64,000 bases of DNA from Candidatus Fraserbacteria bacterium. Its GTDB lineage: Bacteria > Bipolaricaulota > Bipolaricaulia > RBG-16-55-9. Shown here piece after piece: positions 6,326-30,720 of the stretch. Where the stretch lies: positions 1,368 through 65,367 of the forward strand of contig JBBIPG010000001.1 of NCBI GenBank assembly GCA_037442925.1, written 5' to 3'. How positions within the stretch are numbered: position 1 is the first letter of the stretch; each line of letters begins with the position of its first letter. Under the pieces are notes generated by a model that ran no database searches, was not told the DNA's origin, and saw nothing but the letters and a program-made list of their open reading frames with translations. The position numbers and the translations under genes are program-made.

Positions 6326-6934
6326 ATGGCTCAAGCCCGACGTACCTTCGTCATCTTGGGCCATACGGCTGCGATCACGCCTCACTTCACTCTCAATGAC
6401 CTGCCCGGAAGCGCCGGAAGACTCGACATTCTTTGTCGCTGCGTGACGGCTGCTTTCTGTCTCTCGCACGGCATTCGCACTGCTGTCCAGGTCTATCTGG
6501 TCTTGAGGGATCAAGTGGCCGTGCGCTTGGAGGGTTCCCGGCTAAAACGCTTGAACCCTGACGAGCACAGCACGGGTGCCCTGATCAAACGAGCGTTGGA
6601 GGCTTTACCCAACGTACGCCCCGGTGAGCAATGCGAGAGCACGCCGGGCGTCTTCGTCTCCCTCGGCGGATTGCAGACTGTTCTAGACAAACTCCAAGCA
6701 GAAGGAATCGCACTCTATCTGCTCCATGAGCACGGCAAGGACCTTCGCAGCGTAGAGATCAAGGAGCCAGTCGCCTTCGTCTTGAGCGATCACCAGGATT
6801 TCCACTCTTCCGAAGAAGCTCTTATGGCCGGCTACCCACGATTGAGTTTAGGCCCGGTAATTCTTCACGCCGATCACTGCATTGCGATTGTCCATAACGA
6901 GTTGGATCGCAGAGTAAGCCAGATGCTAAAATGA
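6326..6934 (+). CDS. trmY: tRNA (pseudouridine54-N1)-methyltransferase TrmY-like (SPOUT, DUF358/COG1901)
   Basis: LNDLPGSAGRLDILCRCVTAAFCLSHGIR and LHADHCIAIVHNELDRR match archaeal TrmY signatures, as recalled from memory. Confidence 0.65.
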   Translation: MAQARRTFVILGHTAAITPHFTLNDLPGSAGRLDILCRCVTAAFCLSHGIRTAVQVYLVLRDQVAVRLEGSRLKRLNPDEHSTGALIKRALEALPNVRPGEQCESTPGVFVSLGGLQTVLDKLQAEGIALYLLHEHGKDLRSVEIKEPVAFVLSDHQDFHSSEEALMAGYPRLSLGPVILHADHCIAIVHNELDRRVSQMLK

Positions 6935-14624: not shown

Positions 14625-15353
14625 TTACGGGTGATCGTTGCCCAAATACGCTTGCTGCACAATGGGGTTCTTTATGATGTCCTCTGGAGGGCCCTCGGCG
14701 ATCAGTTCACCAAAGCTCATCACGAGAACGCGATCGACCAGGCGCATCACGCTTCGCACGTTGTGATCCACAATTACAACCGTCATCCCTTGCGCCCGAA
14801 GCTCTTGGATCGTCTGTGAGAGTTCATCCGCTTCGCTTGGGGTGAGGCCGGCAAAGGGTTCATCGAGCAGAAGAAGCTCCGGTTCCGTAGTAATGGCTCG
14901 GGCGATCTCCAAGCGCCTCAGGCCGGCGTAGGGCAGCATGGCTGGCAGCCTGTCGAGTTCGGGCAGGAGCCCGAGTCGCTCTGCCACGTGTATGATGTGA
15001 GCTCGGTCATGGAGCATCTGTGGGAAAAGATGGTTGGATAGAGCACAGAGTTCGAGGTTCTCCCAGACCGTCATGCCTGGACAGCACTGGACGCTCTGAA
15101 AGGCTCGTGCGATCCCCAGTTCGACGATCTGATGCGCCTTTCGGTGAGTGATGTCGTGCCCTTTAAAGTGAATTCTCCCGCGATCGGGCTTGAGCGTTCC
15201 CATGATCAAGTGGAAGACTGTCGTTTTGCCAGCTCCATTCGGCCCAATCAGCCCCATGATCGTGCCCTGCTCCACCTTAAGATCGAGCTGGTGGACGGCC
15301 TGCAACCCACCAAAGGCTTTGCTGATCTTGTGGGTTTCCAGGATGGCGCTCAC
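14625..15353 (-). CDS. livG: Branched-chain amino acid ABC transporter ATP-binding protein (LivG-like)
   Basis: Walker A GPNGAGKTT, signature, Walker B. ORF 14625..15491 trimmed to a GTG start at the livM stop. Confidence 0.85.
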   Translation of the reverse strand: MSAILETHKISKAFGGLQAVHQLDLKVEQGTIMGLIGPNGAGKTTVFHLIMGTLKPDRGRIHFKGHDITHRKAHQIVELGIARAFQSVQCCPGMTVWENLELCALSNHLFPQMLHDRAHIIHVAERLGLLPELDRLPAMLPYAGLRRLEIARAITTEPELLLLDEPFAGLTPSEADELSQTIQELRAQGMTVVIVDHNVRSVMRLVDRVLVMSFGELIAEGPPEDIIKNPIVQQAYLGNDHP

Positions 15354-16411
15354 TGCTGGCTCCTCCCTGTGTGGATCTGGATCTCGTCTACCGGCCTGCA
15401 GAGAAGATCTCCCATGAGCAGGGGAAGAAGACCCTTCCGGGCAAAGAGAACGAGGAATACGAGCAGGATCCAAAAGAGCAGCGAAATCCATCCCTGTCCC
15501 TCGAGAATGTGAAGCGCCTCCACTTGGGAAGGCAGTGCGCTTAGGTATTGCTGGCCAAGTTTTGTGATATACGCTCCGATCAGCGGCCCGATGATCGTTC
15601 CCAAGCCACCCGCGACACTGGCCACAATGATCGAGAGCGATAGATCGAGGCTCAGGACACCATCAAGACCTGCAGGCTGCAGAGCCGCCAGTACCGGAAG
15701 ATGCACGTAGGCGGCCCCGGCCAGGCCCGCTGCCGACGCGCTCACCATGAACGCCACCACTTTGAATTTGGCTGGACTCAGCCCTGAGGCTTCCACGGCG
15801 GCTTCATTGTCACGAATCGCCCTAAAGATCGCGCCCCATCTTGAGTGAGCAATCACCAACAATCCAGCACCAATCAATGCCATAAGACCCAGCGAATAAT
15901 AGTACGTCACGAGCTTGACTCTCTCCAGCGGGACATCGTACCCCAAGGGGGGGAAGAAGTTCTTCGGTGTGAAACTCATCCCGGAGATCCCTTCTGTCAC
16001 ATCGGAGTAGATGAGAACCAGCTTGTAGACAGCGATCAGTGCGAGGAGCGTGACCAACGCCAAATAGGGCCCTCGCAGACGGATGGCAGGGATCCCAATC
16101 AGGGCTCCCACGATGACAGATGTGCCCATACCGAGTGGGATCGTCACCCAGGGCGGCCACTCAAGGTGGGTGCCTGCCAGACCGCTGGTATAGGCAGCTA
16201 CGCCGATGAAGAGCGCATGGCCCAGATTCATCTGACCTGCATAACCGGCAAGAAGATCCCAGCTCATGGCAAAGATGGCAAAGAAGTTGGCGAAGATGAG
16301 AGGTGCATACCACTCCTTGGGCACGAGGTTGAAAGCTGGCAGCAAGGCGAGCGTGCCCACAACGCTAGCAAAGACAAGATACGAAGCACGCGATTGCCTC
16401 CTGCGGTTCAT
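15350..16411 (-). CDS. livM: Branched-chain amino acid ABC transporter permease (LivM-like)
   Basis: Multi-TM, 353 aa, overlaps livH. Confidence 0.85.
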   Translation of the reverse strand: MNRRRQSRASYLVFASVVGTLALLPAFNLVPKEWYAPLIFANFFAIFAMSWDLLAGYAGQMNLGHALFIGVAAYTSGLAGTHLEWPPWVTIPLGMGTSVIVGALIGIPAIRLRGPYLALVTLLALIAVYKLVLIYSDVTEGISGMSFTPKNFFPPLGYDVPLERVKLVTYYYSLGLMALIGAGLLVIAHSRWGAIFRAIRDNEAAVEASGLSPAKFKVVAFMVSASAAGLAGAAYVHLPVLAALQPAGLDGVLSLDLSLSIIVASVAGGLGTIIGPLIGAYITKLGQQYLSALPSQVEALHILEGQGWISLLFWILLVFLVLFARKGLLPLLMGDLLCRPVDEIQIHTGRSQQ

Positions 16412-18839: not shown

Positions 18840-20120
18840 GTGGTCCCCATGCAGGTGTGCCTGCGTAGCTTAACCGCTAGAGCATGGGTTGGGGTGCTCC
18901 TGGGTCTGCTCACGGGATTCGATCCCACCTGGGCCCAGCAAGGAGGGGGAGGAAGCCCTCTCGCTCCAGAGGTGCTCTTCATCGATTTCCCCCAGCAGAT
19001 CCCCTCGGATGGGAGCAAGGTCTTCGGTCGGGTGAGTTTTCGGGATACGGACGCCAACATCACGCTCGCCAAGTTCGAGGTGGTGGAAGCCACAGATTTT
19101 GCGTCGTTCAGCTTCGATCCTAAAGTCGAGGGTAAGAAGGAAGGGGTCTTCGAGTTTTTCGTCTTCTCCAAGATTGCCCAGCGGGTCACCCTCAAGGTCA
19201 CGTTGGCCGATGGCGCTGGGAACACGAGCTTCCCCAAAGAGTTCACGTTCGAGGCCGTTTCGCTGATCGAGTTTGTCACGCAGTGGGGAAGCTTGGGCAG
19301 CGGCAATGAGCAGTTCAAAGATCTAGGGGGACTCGCTCTGGATCGTCAGGGGAACATCTACGTCACGGACTTCGACAATAGCAGAGTGCAGAAGTTCTCG
19401 TCGGATGGAACCCTGATCGCAATCTGGGGAGGTCGCGGCAGTGCGCCGGGTCGACTGGATGGTCCTCTGGGCATTGCCGTGGACAGTCAGGGGAACGTCT
19501 ATGTGGCGGAGGCAGGAAACCGGCGGGTTCAGAAATTCAGTTCCGAGGGGAGGTATCTACTCCATTGGGGGAGCTTCGGCAACGATCCCGGACAATTCAA
19601 TTCCCCAACAGGGGTCGCTGTAGATCGCAACGGGAACGTTTATGTAGCGGATCAAACGACTGGGGTCATTCAAGCCTTCACCCCCACGGGAGCCTTTCTG
19701 CGACGCTGGGGCACCCAGGGGAGTGGCGAAGGTCAGCTGCGCAACACCATGGACTTAGTTGTTGACCAAAACGATACTATCTATGTGGCCGATACGGGCA
19801 ACCGCCGCATTGTGACCTTCAGCACTGATGGCGCCTTCTTGGGACAGTGGGGCACCGAAGGCTCGCGCGACGGTCAGTTTCTTGAACCCCGAGGAGTCAC
19901 AGTGGATCTGGAAGGCAACGTCTATGTGGCCGATAAAGGGAACCATCGCATTGCCAAGTTCTCGCGTGAAGGCAGGCTACTGGCTCAATGGGGCAGTGCG
20001 GGCAGTGGCCAAGGAGAATTCTCGGAGCCTGTGGATCTTGCGGTCGACTCGAACTGGGTGATCTACATTGCGGATGAGGGCAACCACCGCATACAAGCCC
20101 TCAAGTTCAAGATGCCGTAA
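18840..20120 (+). CDS. Secreted NHL-repeat beta-propeller protein
   Basis: Six repeats of G..G.F..P.G.AVD..GN.YV.D..N.R.Q.F. N-terminal signal. Confidence 0.7.
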   Translation: MVPMQVCLRSLTARAWVGVLLGLLTGFDPTWAQQGGGGSPLAPEVLFIDFPQQIPSDGSKVFGRVSFRDTDANITLAKFEVVEATDFASFSFDPKVEGKKEGVFEFFVFSKIAQRVTLKVTLADGAGNTSFPKEFTFEAVSLIEFVTQWGSLGSGNEQFKDLGGLALDRQGNIYVTDFDNSRVQKFSSDGTLIAIWGGRGSAPGRLDGPLGIAVDSQGNVYVAEAGNRRVQKFSSEGRYLLHWGSFGNDPGQFNSPTGVAVDRNGNVYVADQTTGVIQAFTPTGAFLRRWGTQGSGEGQLRNTMDLVVDQNDTIYVADTGNRRIVTFSTDGAFLGQWGTEGSRDGQFLEPRGVTVDLEGNVYVADKGNHRIAKFSREGRLLAQWGSAGSGQGEFSEPVDLAVDSNWVIYIADEGNHRIQALKFKMP

Positions 20121-20550
20121 GGTTGCTTCTAGACATGGATCTTCGACGGCGATCCAGAAAGCCCTGTAAGATCAAAACTGCAGCCAGTTGATCCCGGATT
20201 CCTTTGCGCTTCCGGCGACTGAGATCGGCTTCGAGTAAGACACGCTCTGCTTCGACGGTGGTGAGCCGCTCGTCGAACAGTTCGACGGGAAGCTTCAGCG
20301 CTTCTCGCAGTTGGCTCTGAAACTGCAAAGTCTCTTCGGCCTTGGGTCCGGGTGACCCATTCATATTGACCGGTAGCCCAACGACGATCAACTCCACGCC
20401 TTCGCTCTGAACGACGCCCTTGAGATACTCAAGATCACTCTGCCATGAGCGGCGCGTATAGACAGCAAGTCCGCGGGCAACGGTGTGCGTCTCATCGCTG
20501 ATGGCCAGTCCGATGCGCTTTTCGCCCAGATCTAGCGCGAGAATCTTCAT
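20107..20550 (-). CDS. ruvX: Putative pre-16S rRNA nuclease / Holliday junction resolvase RuvX (YqgF)
   Basis: MKILALDLGEKRIGLAISD N-terminus. Confidence 0.85.
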   Translation of the reverse strand: MKILALDLGEKRIGLAISDETHTVARGLAVYTRRSWQSDLEYLKGVVQSEGVELIVVGLPVNMNGSPGPKAEETLQFQSQLREALKLPVELFDERLTTVEAERVLLEADLSRRKRKGIRDQLAAVLILQGFLDRRRRSMSRSNLTAS

Positions 20551-20615
20551 CCCCTTACATTAACGGCGCGCGACTGGTTCGTCAAACACGGTATAATGGC
20601 GCAAGAGAGGAGACC

Positions 20616-21872
20616 ATGTCAGAACTGCTCGCGAAGGCCCAGGAGATCCTGCGACAGGAGGTGATCTGCAACCGCTGTCTCGGGCGTTGCTTTGCCAAGT
20701 CGGGCACGGGGTTAACGAACGAAGAGCGCGGGAAGGCTCTGCGAGTTCTTGCTGCAATGCACAAGCGCCAGCCATTCGTGGCCTCACAAGAGTGCTCGAT
20801 CTGTCAGAGTATTTTCACAACCGTGGATCGTTGGGTGGAGCAAGCTCTGCAGCGAATAGAAGGCTACGAGTTTCAGACATATCTCATGGGAACCCGCATT
20901 CCCTTGGAGATCGAGGCCGCGGAGCGATCGCTTTGGGAGAAGTATCACATTGGCGTTCAGTGTACGGAACCCATCAAGCAAGAGTTCAATCGCGAGGTGG
21001 GAAAGCGCTTTGGGATCATCATGTCCGCTCGTGGTCAACCCATTCTGGTGGATTTTCGAGAGCCGGAAGTTGTCTTTTTGATGGATCTAGAGCGCAATCA
21101 ACTGAAAGTGCGAGTCCACTCGCTCTTCCTCTATGGCCGGTATCGTAAGCTCGTACGAGGCATTCCGCAGACGAAGTGGCCCTGCCGTACGTGTCGTGGG
21201 CGAGGATGTGAGGAGTGCGATTACACGGGAAAGACGTATCCAGAGAGCGTAGAAGAGCTTATTGCTGAACCCGTACTAAGGGCAGCAAAAGGGAAGGCAC
21301 ATGCGCTTCATGCGGCGGGACGGGAGGATGTAGACGCTCGCATGTTGGGTAGCGGGCGGCCTTTCGTTCTGGAAATCACATCGCCTCGAAAACGAAGTCT
21401 GGACTTGGAACTGTTGACGAGAGAGATCAACAGACTGGCACAGGGCAAAGTGGAGGTGGGTGCGCTTCGCTTCGTCAAGAGCAAGGTTGTCGAGCACATC
21501 AAAGAGCTGGAAGCTCAGAAATCGTATCGTGCGGATGTCGCATTGGGTCGTGAAATTCATGAAGAAGAACTGCAACATGCTTTGCATCAGCTGATTGGCG
21601 ATATTGAGCAGCGGACTCCTCGCCGAGTGCGCCATCGGCGGGCCGATCTTGTGAGAACCCGAAGAGTTCTTGCTATCGACGGAAGACTCACAGGACCGTG
21701 CGCGGCCCTCATCGAGATTGTCTGCGATGGCGGACTCTACGTGAAAGAGCTCATTTCCGGAGATGAGGCTCGCACGCGCCCGAGTCTTTCAGGGTTATTG
21801 GGCACACGTGCACAAGTGGTAGAACTCGATGTTCTGGATGTTCTGGGCGGAATCAATCTGCCCGAAACTTGA
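20616..21872 (+). CDS. pus10: tRNA pseudouridine synthase Pus10 (archaeal/eukaryal type)
   Basis: N-terminal CNRCLGRCFAKSGTGLTNEERGKALRV zinc-ribbon region. Catalytic HAAGREDVDARMLGSGRPFVLE motif. 418 aa. Confidence 0.8.
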   Translation: MSELLAKAQEILRQEVICNRCLGRCFAKSGTGLTNEERGKALRVLAAMHKRQPFVASQECSICQSIFTTVDRWVEQALQRIEGYEFQTYLMGTRIPLEIEAAERSLWEKYHIGVQCTEPIKQEFNREVGKRFGIIMSARGQPILVDFREPEVVFLMDLERNQLKVRVHSLFLYGRYRKLVRGIPQTKWPCRTCRGRGCEECDYTGKTYPESVEELIAEPVLRAAKGKAHALHAAGREDVDARMLGSGRPFVLEITSPRKRSLDLELLTREINRLAQGKVEVGALRFVKSKVVEHIKELEAQKSYRADVALGREIHEEELQHALHQLIGDIEQRTPRRVRHRRADLVRTRRVLAIDGRLTGPCAALIEIVCDGGLYVKELISGDEARTRPSLSGLLGTRAQVVELDVLDVLGGINLPET

Positions 21873-22953
21873 AGACTTGGGCCGCGACAAAAAACGTGAT
21901 AGCCAGCCAGAGCCCAATATAGAGTAACTCCGGTCCTAGGGACGTAAGCGGCGCGTCATTGATCGAAATTGCGCGTAGGGCTTTCAGCAACGGCGTCAAC
22001 GGCAGAAATTGCACTAAAGAGTGCACTGCTGTAGGCAGATTGTCCGTCGAGAAGAACGCCCCCGATAGGAACAGCATGGGCATCCCGATCACTTGAGCCA
22101 GGCCGCTCGCTCCGCTGGCCGTCCGACTCAGCCCAGCGACAATGAAGCCGAGATTGAGAAAGATCAGTGTGCCCACAAGCGTCAATGCATACAGATTCAC
22201 GAGGTTTCCGTGGATGGTCGCGCCAAAAAGGCTTGTCCCCACAACCAGAATCAACGACGCTTGAAGGAAGACGAGCACGAGGTACGCCAGCACTTGGCTA
22301 ATAATAAAGGTGCGGGGCGGAAGCGGTGTACTGCGAATTCTCTTCAAGATGCGCTGCTCGCGGTAGCGCGTCATATCCACGGCAATCAAGATGATCCCGT
22401 TGAACATAAGACCCATGCCCATGATCCCCGGCAGGAGGAAATCCATGTATTTCACGGTGCGCGCTTCGAGCGATTCTTCTTTGAGAGCAAAGAGCCTGGG
22501 CACTCCAATCAACTTCAAGTTCAACTCGTTCACTAGCTGATTGAGTGCACTGCGCACCAACTCATACTCAATGAGGTTCGCTTTGTCATAGTATACGGTG
22601 AACTCAATCGTTTCTGAAAGTGTGCCGTCTGAACCCAGAGCACGGAACGACTCAGGGATGATGATCGCGGCTTCGATCTTCCCGTCCTTGAGCGCCCTCT
22701 TTGCAGCAGCTTCGCTTGTGATGTCGTCATGGAGCTGGAAGTACTTGATCTGGCGCATCGCAGCGATGAGTTGCTTCGATACATCCGTGCCGGCTTGATC
22801 GATGATTGCCAGCCGAGCTGTGCCTCCACCTTCGAAGTTGAAGAGCCCAAAGATGACGATGAACATGACCGGAAAGGCCAAACCCCAAAAGAGCGTGAGC
22901 CGGTCTCGGAATATGATCTTGAGCGAAGCGATAAACAGCTTGAGGTAAGTCAA
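21853..22953 (-). CDS. ABC-2 family transporter permease
   Basis: 366 aa, large N-terminal extracytoplasmic loop plus 5 C-terminal TM helices. Operon with ATPase. Confidence 0.75.
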   Translation of the reverse strand: MTYLKLFIASLKIIFRDRLTLFWGLAFPVMFIVIFGLFNFEGGGTARLAIIDQAGTDVSKQLIAAMRQIKYFQLHDDITSEAAAKRALKDGKIEAAIIIPESFRALGSDGTLSETIEFTVYYDKANLIEYELVRSALNQLVNELNLKLIGVPRLFALKEESLEARTVKYMDFLLPGIMGMGLMFNGIILIAVDMTRYREQRILKRIRSTPLPPRTFIISQVLAYLVLVFLQASLILVVGTSLFGATIHGNLVNLYALTLVGTLIFLNLGFIVAGLSRTASGASGLAQVIGMPMLFLSGAFFSTDNLPTAVHSLVQFLPLTPLLKALRAISINDAPLTSLGPELLYIGLWLAITFFVAAQVFKFRAD

Positions 22954-23873
22954 TCTCTCAGCTCCTTGCCGGTCAGTTCCAGAAAGACGTCTTCCAGATT
23001 GGCGGGCAAGACTTCGATGTCTTCGAGTGGAATCTTCTCGGCCTCGATCACCTTGAGTAGCGACGGCAGACTGTCCAAAGCTTTGGTGACCCGCAGCTGA
23101 TATTTCGGGGCATGATCGCGGATCTCTTGGACGCTCAGCACGCCTTCAACAGCTTGGAACGCGCTTGCTGGCAATTGCTTTTCCGTGATCACGTTGATGC
23201 GGTAGCTCGACTTTAAACCATGAACAAGATTGGTCGGCGTGTCGAGCGCCACGATCACGCCAAGATCAATAATTGCGACGCGATCGCAGAGCAGTTGGGC
23301 CTCTTCCATGTAGTGCGTCGTCAGAATGACCGTCTTGCCCTTCGCATTGATCTCCCTGATAAAATCCCAAAGGTGCCGACGGGCCTGAGGATCAAGCCCG
23401 GTCGTGGGCTCATCCAGAAAGACGACCTCGGGATCATTGACGAGACTGGCAACGATAGAGAATCGCTGCTTCTGGCCGCCGGAAAGATGCTTGACCAGAG
23501 AGTTCTTCTTTTCGAGTAAACCGACGATGGAAAGCAGTTGATCGACATCCACTTTCGTTCGGTAGAAGCTGGCAAAGAGATCGAGGATTTCCGCCAGCGT
23601 CAAGAAGTCAAAGTACGCTGAGGCTTGAAGCTGGATGCCGATCTTCTGCTTGACCTTCTTGCTTTCCCTGTGTGAGTCGCATCCCAAGACCCACGTGCGC
23701 CCGGAGGTGGGCTCTTGCAATCCTTCGATGACCTCGAGAGTTGTGGTCTTACCAGCGCCATTGGGGCCGAGCATCCCGAAGATCTCACCTTGCTCGACTT
23801 CAAACGAAATATCATCGATGGCAACGAGAGTGCCAAAGCGCTTGGTCAGATGCTCAACGCGGATGACCGCCAT
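22950..23873 (-). CDS. ABC transporter ATP-binding protein (DrrA-like)
   Basis: GPNGAGKTT, LSGGQKQR, Walker B. Confidence 0.9.
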   Translation of the reverse strand: MAVIRVEHLTKRFGTLVAIDDISFEVEQGEIFGMLGPNGAGKTTTLEVIEGLQEPTSGRTWVLGCDSHRESKKVKQKIGIQLQASAYFDFLTLAEILDLFASFYRTKVDVDQLLSIVGLLEKKNSLVKHLSGGQKQRFSIVASLVNDPEVVFLDEPTTGLDPQARRHLWDFIREINAKGKTVILTTHYMEEAQLLCDRVAIIDLGVIVALDTPTNLVHGLKSSYRINVITEKQLPASAFQAVEGVLSVQEIRDHAPKYQLRVTKALDSLPSLLKVIEAEKIPLEDIEVLPANLEDVFLELTGKELRD

Positions 23874-23875
23874 GT

Positions 23876-24298
23876 TTACGCTTTTGGATTGATGTGATAC
23901 TCGTAGGAGATCTCGGCTCGCCCTTTAAGCGTGTTGGACACGGTGCAGTATTTCTCAAGCGATAGCTCGATCGCTTGCTTGAACGCTTCTTCCGAGATGT
24001 TCTGGCCCCAGATCTTGTAGGTCAGGTGAATCTTCTTGATGTACTTCGGTAGTTCGGTGGCTCGTTCCTCATTCACTTCGATCTCAAAATCGTTGAAATC
24101 GATGCGCTTCTTCTTCAAGATCGAGACCACGTCCATGCCGGTGCAACCTGCCGCGGCGATGAGCACGAGTTCCACTGGGCTGGGCCCGGCGTTGAAGCCA
24201 CCTACATCGGCAGACGTATCCACCACAACTGCATGATTGCTACCGGATGATCCCACAAACTGCAGTCCCCGGTTCCAGACGATCTTGGCCGTGGCCAT
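23876..24298 (-). CDS. OsmC/Ohr family protein
   Basis: 140 aa with paired Cys (CTGMD) typical of OsmC. Confidence 0.75.
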   Translation of the reverse strand: MATAKIVWNRGLQFVGSSGSNHAVVVDTSADVGGFNAGPSPVELVLIAAAGCTGMDVVSILKKKRIDFNDFEIEVNEERATELPKYIKKIHLTYKIWGQNISEEAFKQAIELSLEKYCTVSNTLKGRAEISYEYHINPKA

Positions 24299-24405
24299 AG
24301 GTTCCTCCTTGGACGAGATTTTAGTAAGTGGACGACGCCAAGGTCTACGAGATCAAGAATGATCTGTGGGATCTGACTTTGAGCTTCATGGTCTTCACTC
24401 CTTGA

Positions 24406-24921
24406 TTAAGCCTTCTCAAACACCAGATCGCCGTGCTTCTTGATGTACTCGATAATGCCACCCTCGTTTAAGATCTGCATCATCACCGGTGGGATGCGCC
24501 CGGCCTGAAGCTGCGTCCCCTTCGTCTTGTTGTGAATCATGCCTTGCGAGAGATCGATCTCAAGCTCATCTCCTTGGGCAATCTGATCGGTGTCCACCAC
24601 AAGAGCGGGCATTCCGATGTTGAAGCAGTTGCGATAGAAGATGCGAGCGAAGGACTTTGCCAAGACGATGGGCACGCCAGACAATTTGATCAGCCTCGCT
24701 GCATGTTCCCGAGAAGATCCCTGACCAAAATTGCGCCCACCTACAACGATATACTTCTCTTTGCTCTCAAGAGCAGCCGGAGCGAACTTGGGATCGGCGT
24801 CTTCCAAGACGTGTTTGACGAATTCATCCATCTTGTCCCGGAGATTGGCATAGCGTCCCGGTGCGATGAGATCTGTAGAAACATAGTCTCCAAACTTCCA
24901 GGCTTTGCCTCGGATGATCAT
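24406..24921 (-). CDS. leuD: 3-isopropylmalate/homoaconitate dehydratase small subunit (archaeal-type short LeuD)
   Basis: 171 aa, GDYVSTDLIAPGRY. Confidence 0.85.
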   Translation of the reverse strand: MIIRGKAWKFGDYVSTDLIAPGRYANLRDKMDEFVKHVLEDADPKFAPAALESKEKYIVVGGRNFGQGSSREHAARLIKLSGVPIVLAKSFARIFYRNCFNIGMPALVVDTDQIAQGDELEIDLSQGMIHNKTKGTQLQAGRIPPVMMQILNEGGIIEYIKKHGDLVFEKA

Positions 24922-26229
24922 GGCGTGTACGCCTCCTCTAGAGTCTGGACTTCACTCTGCCCGGTTTTCAGATAGGGCCTGGGATCAGCAATCATGCCCT
25001 CGATGGCGGTCGCTGCCGCTGTCGCAGGCGAAGCGAGATAGACGAATGAGTTGGGATTGCCCAAGCGTCCCTTGAAGTTGCGGTTCTGAGTTGCGACACA
25101 GACTTCACCATCTGACAAGAGCCCAAACTGCATGCCCGGACACGGCCCGCAAGCCGCATGGGCTACTATAGCTCCTGCCTCTTCCAACGCCTTGATGTAT
25201 CCCTTCTTGAGAGCTTGGTGATAGACCCAGCGCGAGCCAGGGTACACCAGAAAGCGCGTGCCCTTGGGTACCTGATGTCCCTTCACGATCTCTGCTGCGA
25301 CGGCAAGGTCCTCCAGTCTGCCATTCGTGCACGTTCCCAAGAAGACTTGATGGACTTTTACTCTCTTCTTAGCCACTTCGCATATGGACACCACATTGCC
25401 GGGAGTGTGCGGCTCCGAAACCATGGGTTCCAGCTTCGAGACATCAATCTCATAGATCTTCTCGTATCTGGCGCTGCGGTCCGGCTTGATCGGCTTCCAT
25501 TGGGCTTCGCGTCCATGAAGCTTCATCCAACGCTTCGTCTGCTGATCCGAAGGGAAGAGTCCGAGCTTGGCTCCACATTCTTGTGCCATGCTGGTGATTG
25601 TGAAGCGTGCATCCATAGAGAGCTTTTTCACCAAGTCCCCGCCGTATTCCATGGCTTTATAGGCAGCTCCATCTTCCCCAATGAGTTTGATAATGTGAAG
25701 AATGATGTCTTTTGCATAGACCCCGTGGGGAAGATCACCGTTCAGTTCAAAGCGAAGCGTCTCCGGCACGCGGAACCATTGCTTGCCCAACGCCATAGCT
25801 ACAGCCGTATCGGTCGAGCCCATTCCGGTGGCAAAGGCGCACATGCCAGCCGATGTGCTTGTGTGTGAATCGGCTCCCACGACTACATCTCCCGGCTTGA
25901 CGTAGCGCTCCGTGAGCAGGATGTGGCTGATCCCCTCACCCATCTCTGCCAGAATGCATCCCGTGTCTTCTGCAAACTTCCTCAGGCGGCCGTGCATATT
26001 GGCGTATTCGGGCCGTCCCGGTGGCCCCAGGTGATCGAGCACGATCATCGCGCGCTCCGGATGCTTCAAGTAATCGCGGCCCATGAGTTGTCGGATCACG
26101 TCGAAGGTGAGCGTGCCGGTGCCATCTTGCACGATGGCCATATCCACTTCACAAAGTGCAATATCACCAGCCTTCACCTCATGCCCCAATTTCATCGAAA
26201 GAATCTGCTCTGCCAGTGTGAGTCCCACA
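24918..26229 (-). CDS. leuC: 3-isopropylmalate/homoaconitate dehydratase large subunit
   Basis: Aconitase-family Cys ligands. ORF 24918..26270 trimmed to GTG (VGLTLAEQIL). Confidence 0.85.
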
Positions 26230-26370
26230 GTTGGAATCCTCCCTCTTGGTGATCGCGCTGAGTATAGCATAGAAGTACAGAATGTGCGAGTGCCTCACGC
26301 AGAGCGATGTTGCGGCCTGGAAGGCTTATCGCTATGCTGGAGTTTACCTTTCGTAGAGAGGGATGAGCAC

Positions 26371-27879
26371 ATGGAAGAGAAACTCCGCAAACTCAAAGAA
26401 TTATTGGCAAGAGTCAGTGATCTGGAATCTGCTGCGGCCGTCTTAAGTTGGGACCAAGAGACGTACATGCCTTCGGGCGGAGCAAGAGCACGAGCCGAAC
26501 AGATCGCAACTCTGGGTAAACTCGCTCACGAGTTCTTCACTTCCACTGAGATCGGGGAGCTGCTCACAGCCCTTGCTCCCTACGCCCGCCAGCTCGACTA
26601 TGATTCTGATGAGGCCAGCCTCATACGCGTTACCCAACGCGACTACGATAAGGCCGTGAAGATCCCCGCGGAGCTTGTGGCGGAGATTGCCCGCACGGGA
26701 GCGCTGGCCCGCCAAGCATGGAAGGAAGCTAAAGAGACCTCGAACTTCGCCCTCTTTCGTCCCCATCTGGAGAAGGTCGTCGATCTTTGCATTCAAAAGG
26801 CAGAAGCCCTGGGGTACGAAGATCGCATCTACGATGCGCTGCTCGATGAGTACGAGCCCGGCATGAAGACGGCGCATGTCGAGAGGATCTTCACTGACCT
26901 TAGGGCTGAACTGGTCCCGATCGTTCAGGCGATTGCCGCATGCGAAAAACCCGATGACTCGTTCCTCCACCAAGAATACGGCGAACAAGCCCAGTGGGAC
27001 TTCGGGATCGAAGTGATCAAGGATTTCGGCTTCCATTTGGAGAACGGCCGACAAGATCTATCCGCTCATCCGTTCACGACGGCGTTTTCCCTCAAAGATG
27101 TGCGGCTGACGACCCGCATCCACAAAGACTATCTGCCTTCGGGTCTCTTCAGCACGCTCCACGAGTGCGGTCATGGACTCTACAACCAGGGAATCGCGCC
27201 GGAATTGGAACGCACACCTCTGGCCGGTGGGACATCGCTTGGGGTGCACGAATCTCAGTCGCGACTATGGGAGAACCTCATCGGGCGTAGCCGTCTCTTC
27301 TGGAGTCACTACTACCCGCGCCTGACGAAGCTCTTTCCGGCTCAGCTCAAGAACGTGAGCCTGGAGCGTTTCTATCAGGCAATCAATCGCGTGGAACCTT
27401 CGTTCATCCGCGTTGAGGCCGATGAAGTTACTTACAATCTTCACGTCATGCTCCGCTTTGAGCTGGAGAATGCCCTGCTGGAAGGCCGGGTCAAAGTCAA
27501 AGATCTCCCGAAAGTCTGGAACGCGAAAATGGAGGAGTATCTGGGTATTGTGCCGCCCAATGATGCTCAGGGTGTCCTCCAAGACATCCACTGGTCTCAG
27601 GCATATCTGGGCTACTTCCCCACCTACTCGCTGGGAAACCTGATGTCGGCCCAGCTCTTTAAGCAAGCAACGCAGGACATTCCCACTCTGGCTCGGCAGA
27701 TCGAGTCGGGCCAGTTTGGTGAGCTATTGAGCTGGTTGCGCACGAACGTGCATCGTCACGGACGAAAATTCACTTCGACGGAACTGCTCGAGAGAATCAC
27801 CCAAAAGCCACTCGAAGCCCAGAGTTATCTAGAATATATCCGTGAGAAATACTCGGACATCTACGGTGAGCTGAACTAG
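26371..27879 (+). CDS. Carboxypeptidase Taq (M32) family metallopeptidase
   Basis: HECGHGLY HEXXH site and SAHPF motif. ORF 26083..27879 trimmed to MEEKLRKL. Confidence 0.9.
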   Translation: MEEKLRKLKELLARVSDLESAAAVLSWDQETYMPSGGARARAEQIATLGKLAHEFFTSTEIGELLTALAPYARQLDYDSDEASLIRVTQRDYDKAVKIPAELVAEIARTGALARQAWKEAKETSNFALFRPHLEKVVDLCIQKAEALGYEDRIYDALLDEYEPGMKTAHVERIFTDLRAELVPIVQAIAACEKPDDSFLHQEYGEQAQWDFGIEVIKDFGFHLENGRQDLSAHPFTTAFSLKDVRLTTRIHKDYLPSGLFSTLHECGHGLYNQGIAPELERTPLAGGTSLGVHESQSRLWENLIGRSRLFWSHYYPRLTKLFPAQLKNVSLERFYQAINRVEPSFIRVEADEVTYNLHVMLRFELENALLEGRVKVKDLPKVWNAKMEEYLGIVPPNDAQGVLQDIHWSQAYLGYFPTYSLGNLMSAQLFKQATQDIPTLARQIESGQFGELLSWLRTNVHRHGRKFTSTELLERITQKPLEAQSYLEYIREKYSDIYGELN

Positions 27880-27914
27880 AGAACGACAAGGCGGAAGCAC
27901 GCGCACAAAAGCAC

Positions 27915-28028
27915 CTAGACCCGGCCAATCTTTCGCGCCAAGCGACTGCGATGGCGACGCCGGGCAGCCAGCTTCCTCTTGCGTTTGCGCATCCACTTTG
28001 GCATGTATTGCCGCTTCATCTTCGACAT
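27915..28028 (-). CDS. 37-aa Arg/Lys-rich small protein, possibly ribosomal bS22-like
   Basis: Reverse-complement reads AAGGAG-N8-ATG then MSKMKRQYMPKWMRKRKRKLAARRRHRSRLARKIGRV*. Composition resembles actinobacterial bS22. Below the ORF-track length cutoff. Confidence 0.45.
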   Translation of the reverse strand: MSKMKRQYMPKWMRKRKRKLAARRRHRSRLARKIGRV

Positions 28029-28117
28029 GTCGATTTCTCCTTCTGTCAGGATTGTGCCCGTGTATCAAGACGAAACACTATTATATTATACATCGGGAGA
28101 TTCCGTGTTGCCGCTGT

Positions 28118-28146
28118 TTGACAAGATCGGCAGCAGTTGGTAGTCT
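28118..28146 (+). promoter_or_regulatory. Putative promoter for infB
   Basis: TTGACA - 17 nt - TAGTCT. Confidence 0.45.
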
Positions 28147-28195
28147 GTGACGGGCTTCTACCCACATCGAAATTCGTTTCGCGAAAGGGAGAATA

Positions 28196-30046
28196 GTGAG
28201 GAAGCAGGTCTTTAGGATTGCAAAAGAGTTGGGGATTTCGAGTAAGCAGCTATTGGCAGATCTCAAAGAGCTGGGCATAGAGAAAGCGAACAACTTCAGT
28301 GCCCTTGAGGAAGACGAGTACGAGAGAGTCCAAGCATTCTACAAGAAAGGCCAAGCGGCTGCTGGAACTCCTCGAGCCGCCGTCGGGGTGATTGAGGCAG
28401 AGCCCCCGCCTGGCAAAGAGAAAGAAAAAGCCGCACAGGAAGCAGCGGTTGCCGTAGAAGAAGCAGTCGAGCCGGAGATTACACCCGAAGAGCCCAAGGT
28501 AGTTCCGCCACCGCCCAAGCCCAAAGTAAAACCCACAGGACAACCTCGCCCGCCGGTCGTGGCAGTACTGGGCCATGTCGATCACGGGAAGACCACGTTG
28601 CTCGACCAGATCCGCAAGACCCACGTGGCTGAGGGGGAAGCAGGCGGCATCACACAGTCCATTGGTGCTTACCAAGTTGAGTTTCAAGGGCAGAAGATCA
28701 CGTTCATCGACACACCCGGCCATCGGGCCTTCGCGGGCATGCGCGCCCGAGGCGCTCAAGTGACCGATATTGCCCTGCTGGTCGTCGCAGCGGATGACGG
28801 CGTCATGGAACAGACCCGCGAGGCTCTTGCCCATGCCCGCCACGCTCAAGTCCCAATCATCGTGGTCATCAACAAGATCGACAAGACCGGAGTGGATCTT
28901 AATCGCGTTAAGAAGCAGCTCCATGAAGAGGGGCTCACACCGGAAGACTGGGGCGGAAATACCATCACCGTTCCCGTCTCGGCACTCTCGGGCCAAGGGA
29001 TCGACGAACTGCTGGAAATGATTCTGCTCGTCGCTGAGCTCGAAGAACTGCGAGCGGATCCCAAGCGGCCCGCCCAAGGTACGATCATCGAGAGCTATCT
29101 GGACCCTACGCGCGGTCCGGTGGCTACGGCCATCATCAAGGATGGTACGCTGCGAGAGCGGGAGACGGTGATTGCCGGGACAGCATCAGGTCGTATCCGT
29201 GCTCTCCTGGATGATCGAGGAAGGCGCATTCAGGAAGCGCTCCCAAGCTCACCCGTGCAGATCTTAGGACTTTCGGAAGTACCCGCAGTAGGCATTCCCC
29301 TGGAGGTAGTCGAACACCCATCCCATGCAAGGCAGCTAGTACAAGCACGCAAGGAAGAGGAGCGGAAGGCGCGCCTCCAGCGTACGCACCGCACCTGGGA
29401 AGATGTGCTGGCTCAAGCTGCTGCACAGCAAGGACTGCTCAAGCTCATCCTCAAAGCCGACACGATCGGGTCGCTCGAGGCCGTTCAGAGTGAACTGCAG
29501 GGCATGGTGATTGACGGTGCGAAGCTGGAGTTCATCTACGCAAGCGTCGGCCACGTCAACGAGAGCGATGTGCTGCTGGCGGCGTCTTCGGAAGGGGAAA
29601 TCGGTGTGTTGGGCTTCCGCGTGGATGTCGATCCCAAGGCCAAGGAACTGGCAGACCAAGAGCACGTCACGATCCGCACCTATGAGATCATCTATCAGCT
29701 CACAGACGATGTGCGCCGCGCGCTCAAGGGCCTGATCGAACCGGAGTATGAAGAAGTCACGCTCGGTGAGATCGAAGTGCGCAACGTCTTCAAGATCCCC
29801 AAGGTGGGTGTGGTCGCCGGTTGTTATGTGAAGGAAGGGCAAGTCACGCACAGTGCCCAGATCCGGGTGCTTCGAAACAAAGCGGTCGTCTTCCAAGGGC
29901 GGATCCAGAGCCTCAAACGCTTCGATCAGGACGTGCGCGATGTCTCCAAAGACAAAGAGTGCGGCATCAAGATCAAGGGCTTTGATGAGATCAAGATCGG
30001 TGATCGAATCGAAGCCTTCACGCTCCGCCTGAAAGAGTCCTTGTAG
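28196..30046 (+). CDS. infB: Translation initiation factor IF-2 (short form)
   Basis: GHVDHGKTTLLD, DTPGH, NKID G-domain motifs. 616 aa. Confidence 0.92.
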   Translation: MRKQVFRIAKELGISSKQLLADLKELGIEKANNFSALEEDEYERVQAFYKKGQAAAGTPRAAVGVIEAEPPPGKEKEKAAQEAAVAVEEAVEPEITPEEPKVVPPPPKPKVKPTGQPRPPVVAVLGHVDHGKTTLLDQIRKTHVAEGEAGGITQSIGAYQVEFQGQKITFIDTPGHRAFAGMRARGAQVTDIALLVVAADDGVMEQTREALAHARHAQVPIIVVINKIDKTGVDLNRVKKQLHEEGLTPEDWGGNTITVPVSALSGQGIDELLEMILLVAELEELRADPKRPAQGTIIESYLDPTRGPVATAIIKDGTLRERETVIAGTASGRIRALLDDRGRRIQEALPSSPVQILGLSEVPAVGIPLEVVEHPSHARQLVQARKEEERKARLQRTHRTWEDVLAQAAAQQGLLKLILKADTIGSLEAVQSELQGMVIDGAKLEFIYASVGHVNESDVLLAASSEGEIGVLGFRVDVDPKAKELADQEHVTIRTYEIIYQLTDDVRRALKGLIEPEYEEVTLGEIEVRNVFKIPKVGVVAGCYVKEGQVTHSAQIRVLRNKAVVFQGRIQSLKRFDQDVRDVSKDKECGIKIKGFDEIKIGDRIEAFTLRLKESL

Positions 30047-30085
30047 GCGGGAGACTTTCCATCCGCGGGGTGTGGGTGAGAGTAT

Positions 30086-30367
30086 ATGCGCGTTGGAATT
30101 GCGCGGATGACGCTGCGCTTGCCACAGACTTCCTCCCTCAAAGACAAACGGCGCGTTCTTAAGAGTCTTATCGCCAAAGTCAAACAGGAGTTCAACGTCT
30201 CGATTGCAGAGGTGGACGAATTGGATAACAGGCGCGTGGCCGTCCTCGGTGTGGCCTTCGTCTCCAACGACGGACGTCTCAACCAACGTGTGATCCAGCA
30301 TCTTGTCTCCCTCATCAGCCACAATCCCCAAGTGTTCGTAGAAGACTGCCAGAGCGAGATCCTTTAG
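30086..30367 (+). CDS. DUF503 (YlxP-like) protein
   Basis: 93 aa between infB and rbfA, as in Bacillus ylxP. Confidence 0.7.
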   Translation: MRVGIARMTLRLPQTSSLKDKRRVLKSLIAKVKQEFNVSIAEVDELDNRRVAVLGVAFVSNDGRLNQRVIQHLVSLISHNPQVFVEDCQSEIL

Positions 30368-30369
30368 TC

Positions 30370-30720
30370 ATGAGCCGGAAGTGGCTGGAAAGAGTCCGTG
30401 AGGAGATCAAGCGCCGTCTCAGCGAGATATTACAATATGAAGCACGCGATCCTCGGCTGCAGCTGGTCACCGTGATGGATGTTCGCGTCTCGAGCGATCT
30501 GCACTATGCGACGATCTACGTGAGTGCCACGGGGAGAGAAGCTTCCTCTGAAGAAGAAGTGGTCAAAATACTAAACGGGCATCGGGGCTTCTTTCGCTCT
30601 GAGCTTGCCAAGCAGCTTCGGCTACGCCACACGCCCGAGTTGCGCTTTGAGCTTGATCTGGTAGAAAGGCGCGCCAGACGAATTGAAGAAGTGCTCAAAG
30701 AAGAAAACCGCAAGCTCTAG
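30370..30720 (+). CDS. rbfA: Ribosome-binding factor A
   Basis: 116 aa, RVSSDLHYATIYVS typical. Confidence 0.85.
   Translation: MSRKWLERVREEIKRRLSEILQYEARDPRLQLVTVMDVRVSSDLHYATIYVSATGREASSEEEVVKILNGHRGFFRSELAKQLRLRHTPELRFELDLVERRARRIEEVLKEENRKL

What the first reader, a model, noticed from the sequence alone, without database searches (positions are those of the whole stretch)
20616..21872. Pus10-type pseudouridine synthase in a bacterial genome
The N-terminal zinc-ribbon region (CNRCLGRCFAKSGTGLTNEERGKALRV) and catalytic GREDVDARMLGSGRPF motif match Pus10, the archaeal/eukaryal tRNA Psi54/55 synthase. Bacteria normally use TruB.

Together with trmY, 14 kb upstream, this completes a Pus10-TrmY pathway. 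It is an apparent inter-domain transfer of a tRNA-modification module.
Basis: partly seen in the sequence, partly recalled or inferred. Interest (0 to 1): 0.55.

Follow-up and report, generated by a model that had tools for sequence, protein, structure and literature searches.

The report
Archaeal-type Pus10 in a Fraserbacteria genome
This bacterial genome really does encode the archaeal-style tRNA enzymes Pus10 and TrmY; they are old, stable residents of one deep-branching bacterial lineage (Fraserbacteria/Bipolaricaulota), although reviews up to 2025 still say bacteria lack Pus10.

Summary
Both the observation and most of the interpretation hold.

- **Pus10:** ORF 20616-21872 (+, 418 aa) is a full-length Pus10. 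It scores 510 bits on TIGR01213 (cutoff 200) and has both Pus10 Pfam domains. Its AlphaFold model (pLDDT 94) matches human PUS10 over both domains. Every catalytic and psi54-determining residue is present.
- **TrmY:** ORF 6326-6934 passes the curated TrmY model (222 bits, cutoff 183).
- **Host:** The window is bacterial (RuvX, Pth, L25, RbfA, bacterial IF-2, DnaE) and collinear with two Candidatus Fraserbacteria MAGs.
- **Age:** Neither gene is a recent arrival. GC and codon usage are ordinary. The ruvX-pus10 pairing and the 13-15 kb trmY-pus10 spacing recur on other contigs of the lineage.
- **Origin:** Both genes are annotated across Bipolaricaulota/Acetothermia/Fraserbacteria. A rough NJ tree nests the bacterial clade inside euryarchaeal Pus10, consistent with one ancient archaea-to-bacteria transfer. 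trmY and pus10 are adjacent in several archaea.
- **truB:** No truB, trmA or trmFO lies in the window, and none follows infB-rbfA. Genome-wide absence could not be tested.

This is an ordinary enzyme in an unusual host. Databases already annotate it, but I found no paper that discusses it.

The parts
20616..21872 (+). pus10 coding sequence (418 aa plus stop): tRNA pseudouridine(54/55) synthase Pus10
   Evidence: ORF. TIGR01213 at 510 bits, full length. PF22023 and PF21238. AlphaFold pLDDT 94.2. Foldseek top hit human PUS10 2V9K at E = 2.9e-32, TMq 0.77.
20667..20804 (+). N-terminal Cys pairs C18/C21 (CNRC) and C60/C63 (CSIC), a putative zinc-binding element of the accessory domain
   Evidence: All four Cys are invariant in 28 bacterial and 20 archaeal Pus10 and in the 50-sequence alignment A1. 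N-terminal cysteines are reported as important for psi54 activity of M. jannaschii Pus10 (PMC9957541). Metal binding is inferred.
20832..21086 (+). THUMP-like domain (residues 73-157)
   Evidence: PF22023 Pus10_THUMP_arc at E = 3e-23, covering 1-78 of 78 model positions.
21126..21842 (+). Catalytic pseudouridine synthase domain (residues 171-409)
   Evidence: PF21238 Pus10_C at E = 1.1e-66. Aligned to the human PUS10 catalytic domain, residues 288-519.
21183..21218 (+). Forefinger loop CxxC-x4-CxxC (C190, C193, C198, C201), full-length 27-residue form
   Evidence: Invariant Cys. The segment has the same length as in methanogen, Archaeoglobi and TACK Pus10; Halobacteria carry an extra 6-11 residues. 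Forefinger integrity is required for psi54 but not psi55 activity in MjPus10 (PMC3753934).
21309..21335 (+). Active-site segment H232-A-A-G-R236-E-D238-V-D240: His at -6, Arg at -2, catalytic Asp, second Asp
   Evidence: Invariant in the alignment. Corresponds to MjPus10 R273, D275 and D277. His(-6) is typical of dual psi54/psi55 enzymes, whereas Thermococcales have Lys (PMC3753934).
21633..21638 (+). Thumb-loop His340-Arg341 'hook'
   Evidence: Invariant. Equivalent to MjPus10 H376/R377, which are replaced by Asn-Ser in the psi55-only P. furiosus enzyme.
20592..20612 (+). TATAAT hexamer (20592-20597) and purine-rich Shine-Dalgarno-like AGGAG (20608-20612) upstream of the ATG
   Evidence: Read directly from the sequence. 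The two-hexamer scanner found no full + strand promoter here, so this is weak evidence.
6326..6934 (+). trmY coding sequence (202 aa): tRNA (pseudouridine54-N1)-methyltransferase. It starts 4 nt after the trkH stop and is followed by a 4HBT thioesterase gene and pcm.
   Evidence: PF04013 at 7.9e-51. NF002560 equivalog at 222 bits against a cutoff of 183. 140 bits to the characterised MJ1640 (3AIA), against 56 bits to Vibrio VC_A1059.
20107..20550 (-). ruvX (YqgF), the divergent neighbour of pus10. Context only: a conserved bacterial partner that shows pus10 is a resident gene.
   Evidence: PF03652 and TIGR00250. ruvX-pus10 adjacency recurs in L001, L002, L085 and L087.
28196..30720 (+). infB-DUF503-rbfA string with no truB after it; the next gene is on the other strand. 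Context for the TruB question.
   Evidence: The same truB-less arrangement appears in L002, L081, L082 and L083. The Firmicutes control L084 has infB-rbfA-nrnA-truB-ribF-rpsO-pnp.

Best explanation
The ORF encodes a functional stand-alone tRNA pseudouridine synthase of the Pus10 family, in a bacterium of the Fraserbacteria/Bipolaricaulota lineage.

Mechanism, inferred from archaeal Pus10:
- The N-terminal Zn-ribbon/THUMP accessory domain docks the acceptor/CCA end of the tRNA.
- The thumb and forefinger loops pinch the T-loop.
- Asp238 isomerises U55 to psi55. Because all known psi54 determinants are intact, it also isomerises U54 to psi54.
- The SPOUT methyltransferase TrmY, 13.7 kb upstream, then methylates N1 of psi54 to give m1-psi54, an isostere of ribothymidine.

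Both genes were most likely acquired together from a euryarchaeon of Halobacteriota type, near the base of this bacterial lineage. They have been inherited vertically since.

Shown here: family membership, fold, residue conservation, bacterial context, synteny, co-occurrence, and nesting among archaeal sequences.

Inferred: enzymatic activity, substrates, co-transfer, and any replacement of TruB/TrmA.
For: - Family and fold.
- Invariant catalytic residues and psi54 determinants (H232, R236, D238, D240, Y304, H340, R341, V376, K377, L404, eight Cys, full-length forefinger): interpreted with PMC3753934.
- TrmY membership. TrmY acts only on psi54 made by Pus10 (PMC9508554; PMC7912444), so keeping it implies that psi54 is formed.
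- Bacterial context.
- Collinearity with two Fraserbacteria MAGs over about 20 kb, plus ordinary composition (pus10 GC z = -0.9, GC3 z = -2.0, codon distance rank 12 of 48).
- Pus10 and TrmY on the same contig, 13.0 and 15.2 kb apart, with the same neighbours in two other assemblies.
- Both proteins are named across Bipolaricaulota, Acetothermia and Fraserbacteria.
- NJ tree: a clade of 27 bacterial sequences (bootstrap 54) lies inside Halobacteriota-type Pus10, with TACK archaea as outgroup (enclosing nodes 64 and 94).
- trmY is adjacent to pus10 (53-174 bp) in 5 archaeal loci and within 5 kb in 12 more.
- tRNAs in related loci carry the normal G53-U54-U55-C56-R57-A58 substrate.
Against: - There are no biochemical or modification data for any member of this lineage.
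- The trees are distance-based, with modest support (54-64 at the key nodes), and the archaeal sample is biased toward the closest hits. The TrmY tree is unresolved.
- The bacterial forefinger lacks the haloarchaeal insertion. The NJ sister relation to Halobacteria may therefore be an artefact, and the donor is not pinned down.
- One divergent Acetothermia sequence (L056) falls outside the main bacterial clade.
- pus10 and trmY are not co-transcribed here.
- The presence or absence of TruB, TrmA and TrmFO elsewhere in the genome is unknown. If they are present, Pus10/TrmY might act on only a subset of tRNAs.
Confidence: 0.75

Rival explanations
1. Pus10 here makes only psi55, as a TruB replacement or backup like Thermococcales Pus10. 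The PF04013 protein methylates something other than psi54.
For: Pus10 specificity varies among archaea; P. furiosus Pus10 makes only psi55 (PMC7912444). Some bacterial COG1901 proteins, such as Vibrio VC_A1059, occur without a known Pus10 context (PMC1829167).
Against: All features lost in psi55-only Pus10 are retained here: His rather than Lys at -6, the thumb His-Arg rather than Asn-Ser, and a full-length forefinger. The window's TrmY passes the TrmY equivalog cutoff. It is far closer to the characterised MJ1640 (140 bits) than to the Vibrio protein (56 bits, 25% identity). The two genes co-occur across the lineage.
Confidence: 0.1
2. As in mammals, Pus10/TrmY coexist with a conventional TruB plus TrmA or TrmFO and modify only a subset of tRNAs. 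Nothing has been replaced.
For: Genome-wide absence of truB, trmA and trmFO was not testable. The classical nusA-infB-rbfA-truB operon is fragmented in this phylum (nusA is also missing upstream of infB), so an empty slot after rbfA says little. Human cells carry both TRUB1 and PUS10 (PMC7749629 abstract).
Against: No TruB-, TrmA- or TrmFO-type domain was found among about 55 window ORFs. No TruB-like sequence was found in about 350 kb of Bipolaricaulota/Fraserbacteria DNA held. This is a small sample of each genome, so the evidence is weak.
Confidence: 0.4
3. The gene is an archaeal contaminant, the product of a chimeric assembly, or a very recent transfer into this one genome.
For: Pus10 is otherwise an archaeal and eukaryal family according to reviews. 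pus10 GC3 is about 2 SD below the window mean.
Against: The same ruvX-pus10-(abc2/osmC)-M32-infB arrangement occurs in independent assemblies from NCBI, JGI and Logan (L001, L002, L082, L085, L087). Both flanks carry bacteria-specific genes. Overall GC and codon usage are typical. Within-lineage Pus10 identities (50-80%) track those of the flanking proteins.
Confidence: 0.02
4. Pus10 and TrmY were inherited vertically from the last universal common ancestor and lost in all other bacteria, or were transferred from this bacterial lineage to Archaea.
For: Bipolaricaulota are often described as deep-branching. In the unresolved TrmY tree, haloarchaeal sequences sit among the bacterial ones.
Against: Pus10 is broadly distributed in Archaea. 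Among the 80 best genome hits, the bacterial ones all trace to a single lineage once mislabelled contigs are accounted for. With a TACK outgroup the bacterial clade is nested within euryarchaeal sequences. Vertical inheritance would need many independent losses across Bacteria.
Confidence: 0.05

Closest known systems
Archaeal Pus10 with dual psi54/psi55 activity (Methanocaldococcus jannaschii, Haloferax volcanii; TIGR01213)
   Same: Same length class and architecture: N-terminal Cys pairs, a THUMP domain and a catalytic domain. It has the GREDXD motif, His(-6), Tyr, V/I-Lys, Leu, the thumb His-Arg and a CxxC-CxxC forefinger of full length. It shows 46-51% identity to Halobacteriota and Archaeoglobi Pus10. 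It is paired with TrmY in the genome.
   Different: The host is a bacterium. The gene is flanked by ruvX and ABC-2 transporter genes and has a bacterial-style TATAAT and Shine-Dalgarno-like sequence. It lacks the 6-11-residue forefinger insertion of Halobacteria. It would act on bacterial tRNAs, which have an unmodified C56 and an encoded CCA. Activity has not been tested.
Human PUS10 (PDB 2V9K)
   Same: It is the only solved Pus10. The model superposes over both domains (TMq 0.77, E = 2.9e-32). The catalytic domain aligns at E = 3.6e-31 with the core residues conserved.
   Different: Identity is only 22%. The human accessory domain is much larger, and it lacks the Cys-rich forefinger insertion. 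Human PUS10 coexists with TRUB1/2 and modifies selected tRNAs.
Bacterial TruB (psi55 synthase), with TrmA or TrmFO (m5U54)
   Same: Same target loop and the same general pseudouridine synthase catalytic fold. The end product is functionally convergent, because m1-psi54/psi55 is isosteric with T54/psi55 (PMC7912444).
   Different: It is a different family. There is no TruB_N or PUA domain, only weak partial Cbf5 similarity (24 bits). TMq is 0.3 and limited to the catalytic core. TruB has no forefinger loop and cannot make psi54.
TrmY / COG1901 (MJ1640, HVO_1989; PDB 3AI9, 3AIA, 2QMM) and the bacterial outlier Vibrio VC_A1059 (2QWV)
   Same: The window protein passes the TrmY equivalog model and aligns end to end with MJ1640.
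   Different: Unlike the Vibrio homologue, previously noted as a rare bacterial COG1901 member (PMC1829167), it is of archaeal type: 38-51% identity to archaeal TrmY against 25% to Vibrio. It also co-occurs with Pus10.

Membership tests
Pus10 (TIGR01213; PF21238 + PF22023) | Full-length match to the curated equivalog model above its cutoff | tested here: met
   510.3 bits against a cutoff of 200, E = 3.3e-153, model positions 2-401 of 402.
Pus10 (TIGR01213; PF21238 + PF22023) | Two-part architecture: an N-terminal accessory domain (Zn-ribbon-like Cys pairs plus THUMP) and a C-terminal catalytic domain | tested here: met
   PF22023 covers residues 73-157 and PF21238 covers 171-409. C18, C21, C60 and C63 are invariant. 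The model has pTM 0.87.
Pus10 (TIGR01213; PF21238 + PF22023) | GREDXD active-site motif with the catalytic Asp, plus the conserved Tyr, hydrophobic-Lys pair and Leu of the core | tested here: met
   G235-R-E-D238-V-D240, Y304, V376-K377 and L404. All are invariant or conservative in 48 sequences. Residue roles come from PMC3753934.
Pus10 (TIGR01213; PF21238 + PF22023) | Fold matches a solved Pus10 better than any other pseudouridine synthase family | tested here: met
   2V9K at E = 2.9e-32, TMq 0.77. The next hit is TruA 1DJ0 at E = 1.8e-10, TMq 0.37.
Pus10, dual-specificity (psi54 + psi55) subtype | Sequence determinants of psi54 activity: full-length forefinger (ffl1/ffl2), Arg at -2, His rather than Lys at -6, thumb His-Arg, Tyr | tested here: met
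   27-residue forefinger with CxxC-x4-CxxC, R236, H232, H340-R341 and Y304, against the criteria in PMC3753934. This is a sequence-level test only.
Pus10 (any subtype) | Converts U55, and U54, of tRNA to pseudouridine | not testable with these tools
   This needs an enzyme assay or modification mapping.
TrmY (NF002560; PF04013/COG1901) | Match to the curated TrmY equivalog above its cutoff, and end-to-end similarity to the characterised MJ1640 | tested here: met
   222.4 bits against a cutoff of 183. PF04013 at 7.9e-51. 3AIA at 139.8 bits over residues 5-196.
TrmY (NF002560; PF04013/COG1901) | SAM-dependent N1-methylation of psi54 in tRNA | not testable with these tools
   Inferred from orthology and from co-occurrence with Pus10.
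   No Pfam hit to those families. Only 22-24-bit partial Cbf5 matches, far below cutoffs of about 240. Structural matches are limited to the shared catalytic core.
Archaeal-type T-loop system that has replaced TruB + TrmA/TrmFO | Absence of truB, trmA and trmFO from the genome | not testable with these tools
   None is in the 64-kb window. None follows infB-rbfA in four related contigs. tblastn with a control TruB finds nothing in the DNA held. Whole genomes could not be searched.

The most novel reading that the evidence does not exclude
The Fraserbacteria/Bipolaricaulota lineage has completely swapped the bacterial T-loop machinery (TruB plus TrmA or TrmFO) for the archaeal pair Pus10 + TrmY. 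Its tRNAs would then carry m1-psi54/psi55. That would make it the first bacterial lineage with an archaeal-type tRNA elbow, fixed since an ancient inter-domain co-transfer of an adjacent trmY-pus10 cassette.
Probability: 0.4. Interest if true: 0.65.

Novelty: new member of a known kind. Interest (0 to 1): 0.45.

Why it matters
Reviews from 2017 to 2025 state that Pus10 is absent from Bacteria (PMC5682645, PMC7912444, PMC9957541, PMC12710931). A whole bacterial lineage that has stably kept Pus10 together with TrmY corrects that statement.

It also offers a natural experiment: an archaeal T-loop modification pathway working on bacterial tRNAs and ribosomes. If TruB and TrmA/TrmFO prove to be missing, this would be a clean case of non-orthologous displacement of a near-universal bacterial tRNA modification enzyme by inter-domain transfer.

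A cultured member with a complete genome now exists (strain J31; bioRxiv 10.1101/2025.11.21.689855). Its Pus10 was hit P0117, so the prediction can be tested directly.

In practical terms the enzymes themselves are ordinary, and annotation pipelines already name them correctly.

Tried and rejected
- **Wrong guess about a truB operon.** I guessed that the minus-strand ORFs at 49.5-58 kb were a nusA-infB-truB-pnp operon. They are an ABC-F ATPase, a PD40/Omp85-like protein and a CCG/4Fe-4S protein. The real infB is at 28196.
- **Could not extend the contig.** Exact look-ups of window proteins, meant to extend the contig and name its record, found nothing on record.
- **truB absence unresolved.** I tried supplementary tables of four Bipolaricaulota/Acetothermia papers. 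They gave nothing usable, only community-level KO abundances.
- **Papers not held.** The Pus10 evolution paper (Fitzek 2018) and the TrmY discovery paper (Chatterjee 2012) are not held.
- **TrmY tree unresolved.** With 188 columns its internal supports were 4-28%. I use it only to show closeness to Halobacteria and distance from the Vibrio homologue.
- **No promoter support.** The promoter/terminator scan around pus10 and trmY was at chance level.
- **No RNA features.** The window has no tRNA genes and no Rfam matches.
- **T-loops do not discriminate.** T-loops of tRNAs in related loci are standard and do not separate Pus10 from TruB/TrmA use.
- **Apparent wider bacterial spread rejected.** Contigs labelled Caldisericota, Neomarinimicrobiota, Thermotoga and Thermotogaceae seemed to widen the bacterial distribution. 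Four of the five (L004, L008, L016, L069) have flanking genes that match Acetothermia MAGs. L006 is less clear.
- **Apparent truncation rejected.** The short pus10 in L001 is a run of N in the scaffold.
Full report
**1. The observation**

The window contains an ORF at exactly 20616-21872 on the + strand (ATG start, 418 aa).

Profile searches leave no doubt about the family:
- NCBIfam TIGR01213 (tRNA pseudouridine(54/55) synthase Pus10, an equivalog model) scores 510 bits against a cutoff of 200. The E-value is 3.3e-153, and the match covers model positions 2-401 of 402.
- Pfam finds Pus10_THUMP_arc (3e-23, residues 73-157) and Pus10_C (1.1e-66, residues 171-409).
- The only other pseudouridine synthase signals are 22-24-bit partial matches to Cbf5 models whose cutoffs are about 240.

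An AlphaFold2 model built from a 50-sequence alignment is confident (mean pLDDT 94.2, pTM 0.87). Its best match among solved structures is human PUS10 (2V9K), at E = 2.9e-32 and TM 0.77 across both domains. The next hit, E. coli TruA, reaches TM 0.37 on the shared catalytic core only.

**2. Functional residues**

Mutagenesis of M. jannaschii Pus10 (PMC3753934) defined the key positions:
- the GREDXD core (R273, D275, D277);
- Y339, I412/K413 and L440;
- the thumb-loop H376/R377;
- the forefinger segments ffl1 and ffl2;
- a His six residues before the catalytic Asp, which is Lys in the psi55-only Thermococcales enzymes.

The window protein has H232, R236, D238, D240, Y304, H340, R341, V376, K377 and L404. 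It also has a full-length 27-residue forefinger with CxxC-x4-CxxC, and two N-terminal Cys pairs (C18/C21, C60/C63). All of these are invariant, or V/I, in 28 bacterial and 20 archaeal homologues.

At the sequence level this is a dual-specificity (psi54 + psi55) Pus10, not the psi55-only type. Activity itself is inferred.

**3. TrmY**

ORF 6326-6934 (+, 202 aa) hits PF04013 at 7.9e-51. It scores 222 bits on the TrmY equivalog NF002560, whose cutoff is 183. It aligns end to end with the characterised MJ1640 (3AIA, 140 bits) and with AF_1056 (117 bits). The bacterial outlier Vibrio VC_A1059 scores only 56 bits.

The gene starts 4 nt after trkH and is followed by a thioesterase gene and pcm. It is therefore embedded in its own same-strand gene string, 13.7 kb upstream of pus10, and is not co-transcribed with it.

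**4. The host is bacterial and the genes are residents**

Bacteria-specific genes surround both loci:
- prs, L25/Ctc and pth;
- ruvX, divergent from pus10 across a 65-bp spacer;
- MacB/FtsX and peptidoglycan-binding domains;
- bacterial IF-2 (TIGR00487), followed by DUF503 and RbfA;
- DnaE.

The nearest genome representatives are two Candidatus Fraserbacteria MAGs, with Pus10 identities of 73% and 65%. NCBI places them in the phylum Candidatus Fraseribacteriota. Both are collinear with the window across about 20 kb, from macB-prs-L25-pth-liv-NHL-ruvX-pus10 through to infB-DUF503-rbfA.

pus10 and trmY have ordinary GC content and codon usage. For pus10, GC z = -0.9, GC3 z = -2.0, and codon distance ranks 12 of 48. 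trmY is typical.

On an NCBI Acetothermia contig (488 kb) trmY lies 13.0 kb upstream of pus10, and on a JGI contig (90.7 kb) it lies 15.2 kb upstream. Strand and neighbours match the window in both. Contamination, chimerism and recent transfer are therefore excluded.

**5. Distribution and origin**

Homologues at 50-80% identity are abundant. Where they carry names, they come from Candidatus Bipolaricaulota/Acetothermia and Fraserbacteria, and NCBI and JGI already call them Pus10. The same holds for TrmY.

Contigs labelled Caldisericota, Neomarinimicrobiota, Thermotoga sp. and one labelled Thermotogaceae have flanking genes that are 60-98% identical to, or collinear with, Acetothermia MAGs. 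These labels are probably binning or naming errors. Among the best hits, bacterial Pus10 looks confined to one lineage.

Archaeal Pus10 from Halobacteria, Methanocellales, Methanosarcinales and Archaeoglobi are 46-51% identical.

I built a neighbour-joining tree (405 columns, 100 bootstraps, TACK outgroup):
- It recovers 27 bacterial sequences as a clade (bootstrap 54), next to Halobacteria (60).
- The enclosing nodes within Halobacteriota-type Pus10 have supports of 64 and 94.
- The window groups with Fraserbacteria RBG_16_55_9 and a JGI sequence (100).

This tree is crude and the sampling is biased toward close hits. The bacterial forefinger also lacks the insertion specific to Halobacteria. 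I therefore conclude only that the bacterial clade is nested among euryarchaeal sequences. The donor order is not identified.

TrmY shows the same nearest neighbours: 40-51% identity to Halobacteria, 38-40% to MJ1640 and AF_1056, and 25% to Vibrio. Its tree is unresolved.

In archaeal loci trmY is directly adjacent to pus10 (53-174 bp) in 5 cases and within 5 kb in 12 more. Co-transfer as a cassette is therefore plausible but not shown.

**6. The TruB question**

No TruB, TrmA or TrmFO domain occurs among about 55 window ORFs.

The usual position of truB, downstream of infB-rbfA, is empty. After infB (28196-30046), DUF503 and rbfA (30370-30720), the strand flips. The same holds in L002 and in three further Bipolaricaulota contigs. 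A Firmicutes control shows nusA-infB-rbfA-nrnA-truB-ribF-rpsO-pnp.

The whole operon is fragmented in this phylum, since nusA is missing too, so this evidence is weak. A tblastn search with the control TruB found nothing in the DNA held, but that covers only a small part of any genome.

Genome-wide absence could not be tested with the tools and caps available.

**7. Comparison with the literature**

[quoted passage not shown] For COG1901/TrmY, only a few bacterial members, such as a Vibrio ORF, were noted as probable transfers from Archaea (PMC1829167).

No paper in the searchable library mentions Pus10 together with Bipolaricaulota, Acetothermia, Fraserbacteria or Caldiserica. The library is incomplete, so this is not proof of novelty.

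A preprint describes the first cultured Bipolaricaulota isolate, strain J31, with a 1,887,171-bp genome. Its Pus10 homologue is hit P0117, which makes experimental tests feasible.

**8. Verdict**

The enzyme is an orthodox Pus10 and the methyltransferase an orthodox TrmY. What is unusual is the host.

The pair is an ancient, vertically maintained acquisition of the Fraserbacteria/Bipolaricaulota lineage, not a peculiarity of this genome.

The most interesting open point is whether the pair has displaced TruB and TrmA/TrmFO and gives bacterial tRNAs an archaeal m1-psi54/psi55 elbow. I put that at about 0.4.

Noticed in passing
window 20616-30720; L001, L002, L082, L085: pus10 lies 6-7 kb upstream of the infB-DUF503-rbfA string in the window and in several related contigs. 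The intervening genes vary (osmC, ABC-2, aconitase-family subunits, M32 peptidase). A psi55 synthase gene thus sits near the operon that hosts truB in other bacteria. This may be coincidence.
   Followed up: partly
L004, L008, L016, L069 (also L035): Contigs labelled Caldisericota, Neomarinimicrobiota, Thermotoga sp. and Thermotogaceae carry flanking genes 60-98% identical to, or collinear with, Acetothermia-labelled MAGs. A 'Bathyarchaeia' contig has a Pus10 nearly identical to Methanomicrobia MAGs. These are probably mis-binned or mislabelled records in public genomes. The second 'Thermotogaceae' contig, L006, is less clear.
   Followed up: yes
L006 9633-9709; L056 3926-4019: In two Bipolaricaulota-type loci a tRNA gene (tRNA-Pro, tRNA-Ser) lies 66-84 bp directly upstream of pus10 on the same side. 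The window has no tRNA gene at all.
   Followed up: no
window 27879-30720; L081, L082, L083: infB has no nusA, rimP or ylxR upstream and no truB, ribF, rpsO or pnp downstream. The classical translation-factor operon is fragmented across this phylum, and a DUF503 gene is always inserted between infB and rbfA.
   Followed up: partly
L048, L057, L073, L078, L080: In several archaea (four Halobacteria and one Nitrososphaerota contig) trmY and pus10 are immediate neighbours, 53-174 bp apart. They are divergent in the haloarchaea and co-directional in L073. This is a ready-made two-gene cassette.
   Followed up: partly
window 45023-45451 and 45922-47064: A PIN-domain (VapC-like) ORF is followed by a protein that combines a trypsin-like peptidase fragment with six or more WD40 repeats.
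   Followed up: no
window 8275-9315 and 18840-20120: There are two secreted-looking repeat proteins: one combines PKD domains with a plastocyanin/azurin-type copper-binding domain, and the other is an NHL-repeat beta-propeller with a signal-peptide-like N-terminus. Both are conserved in the Fraserbacteria loci.
   Followed up: no
window 24918-26270 (-) and 26083-27879 (+); 14625-15491 and 15350-16411 (-): Mechanical ORF calls overlap by 140-190 bp. The M32 carboxypeptidase Pfam match begins only at residue 104, so its true start is probably well downstream of 26083. The livM start is probably also downstream of the one listed.
   Followed up: no
L001 about 11005-11080: The Fraserbacteria RBG_16_55_9 pus10 appears truncated only because of a run of N (scaffold gap or masked stretch) inside the gene.
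   Followed up: yes
window 62022-63350: The CofD-family ORF is the YvcK type (TIGR01826, 364 bits), not the F420 biosynthesis enzyme CofD. It is therefore not another archaeal-type trait.
   Followed up: yes
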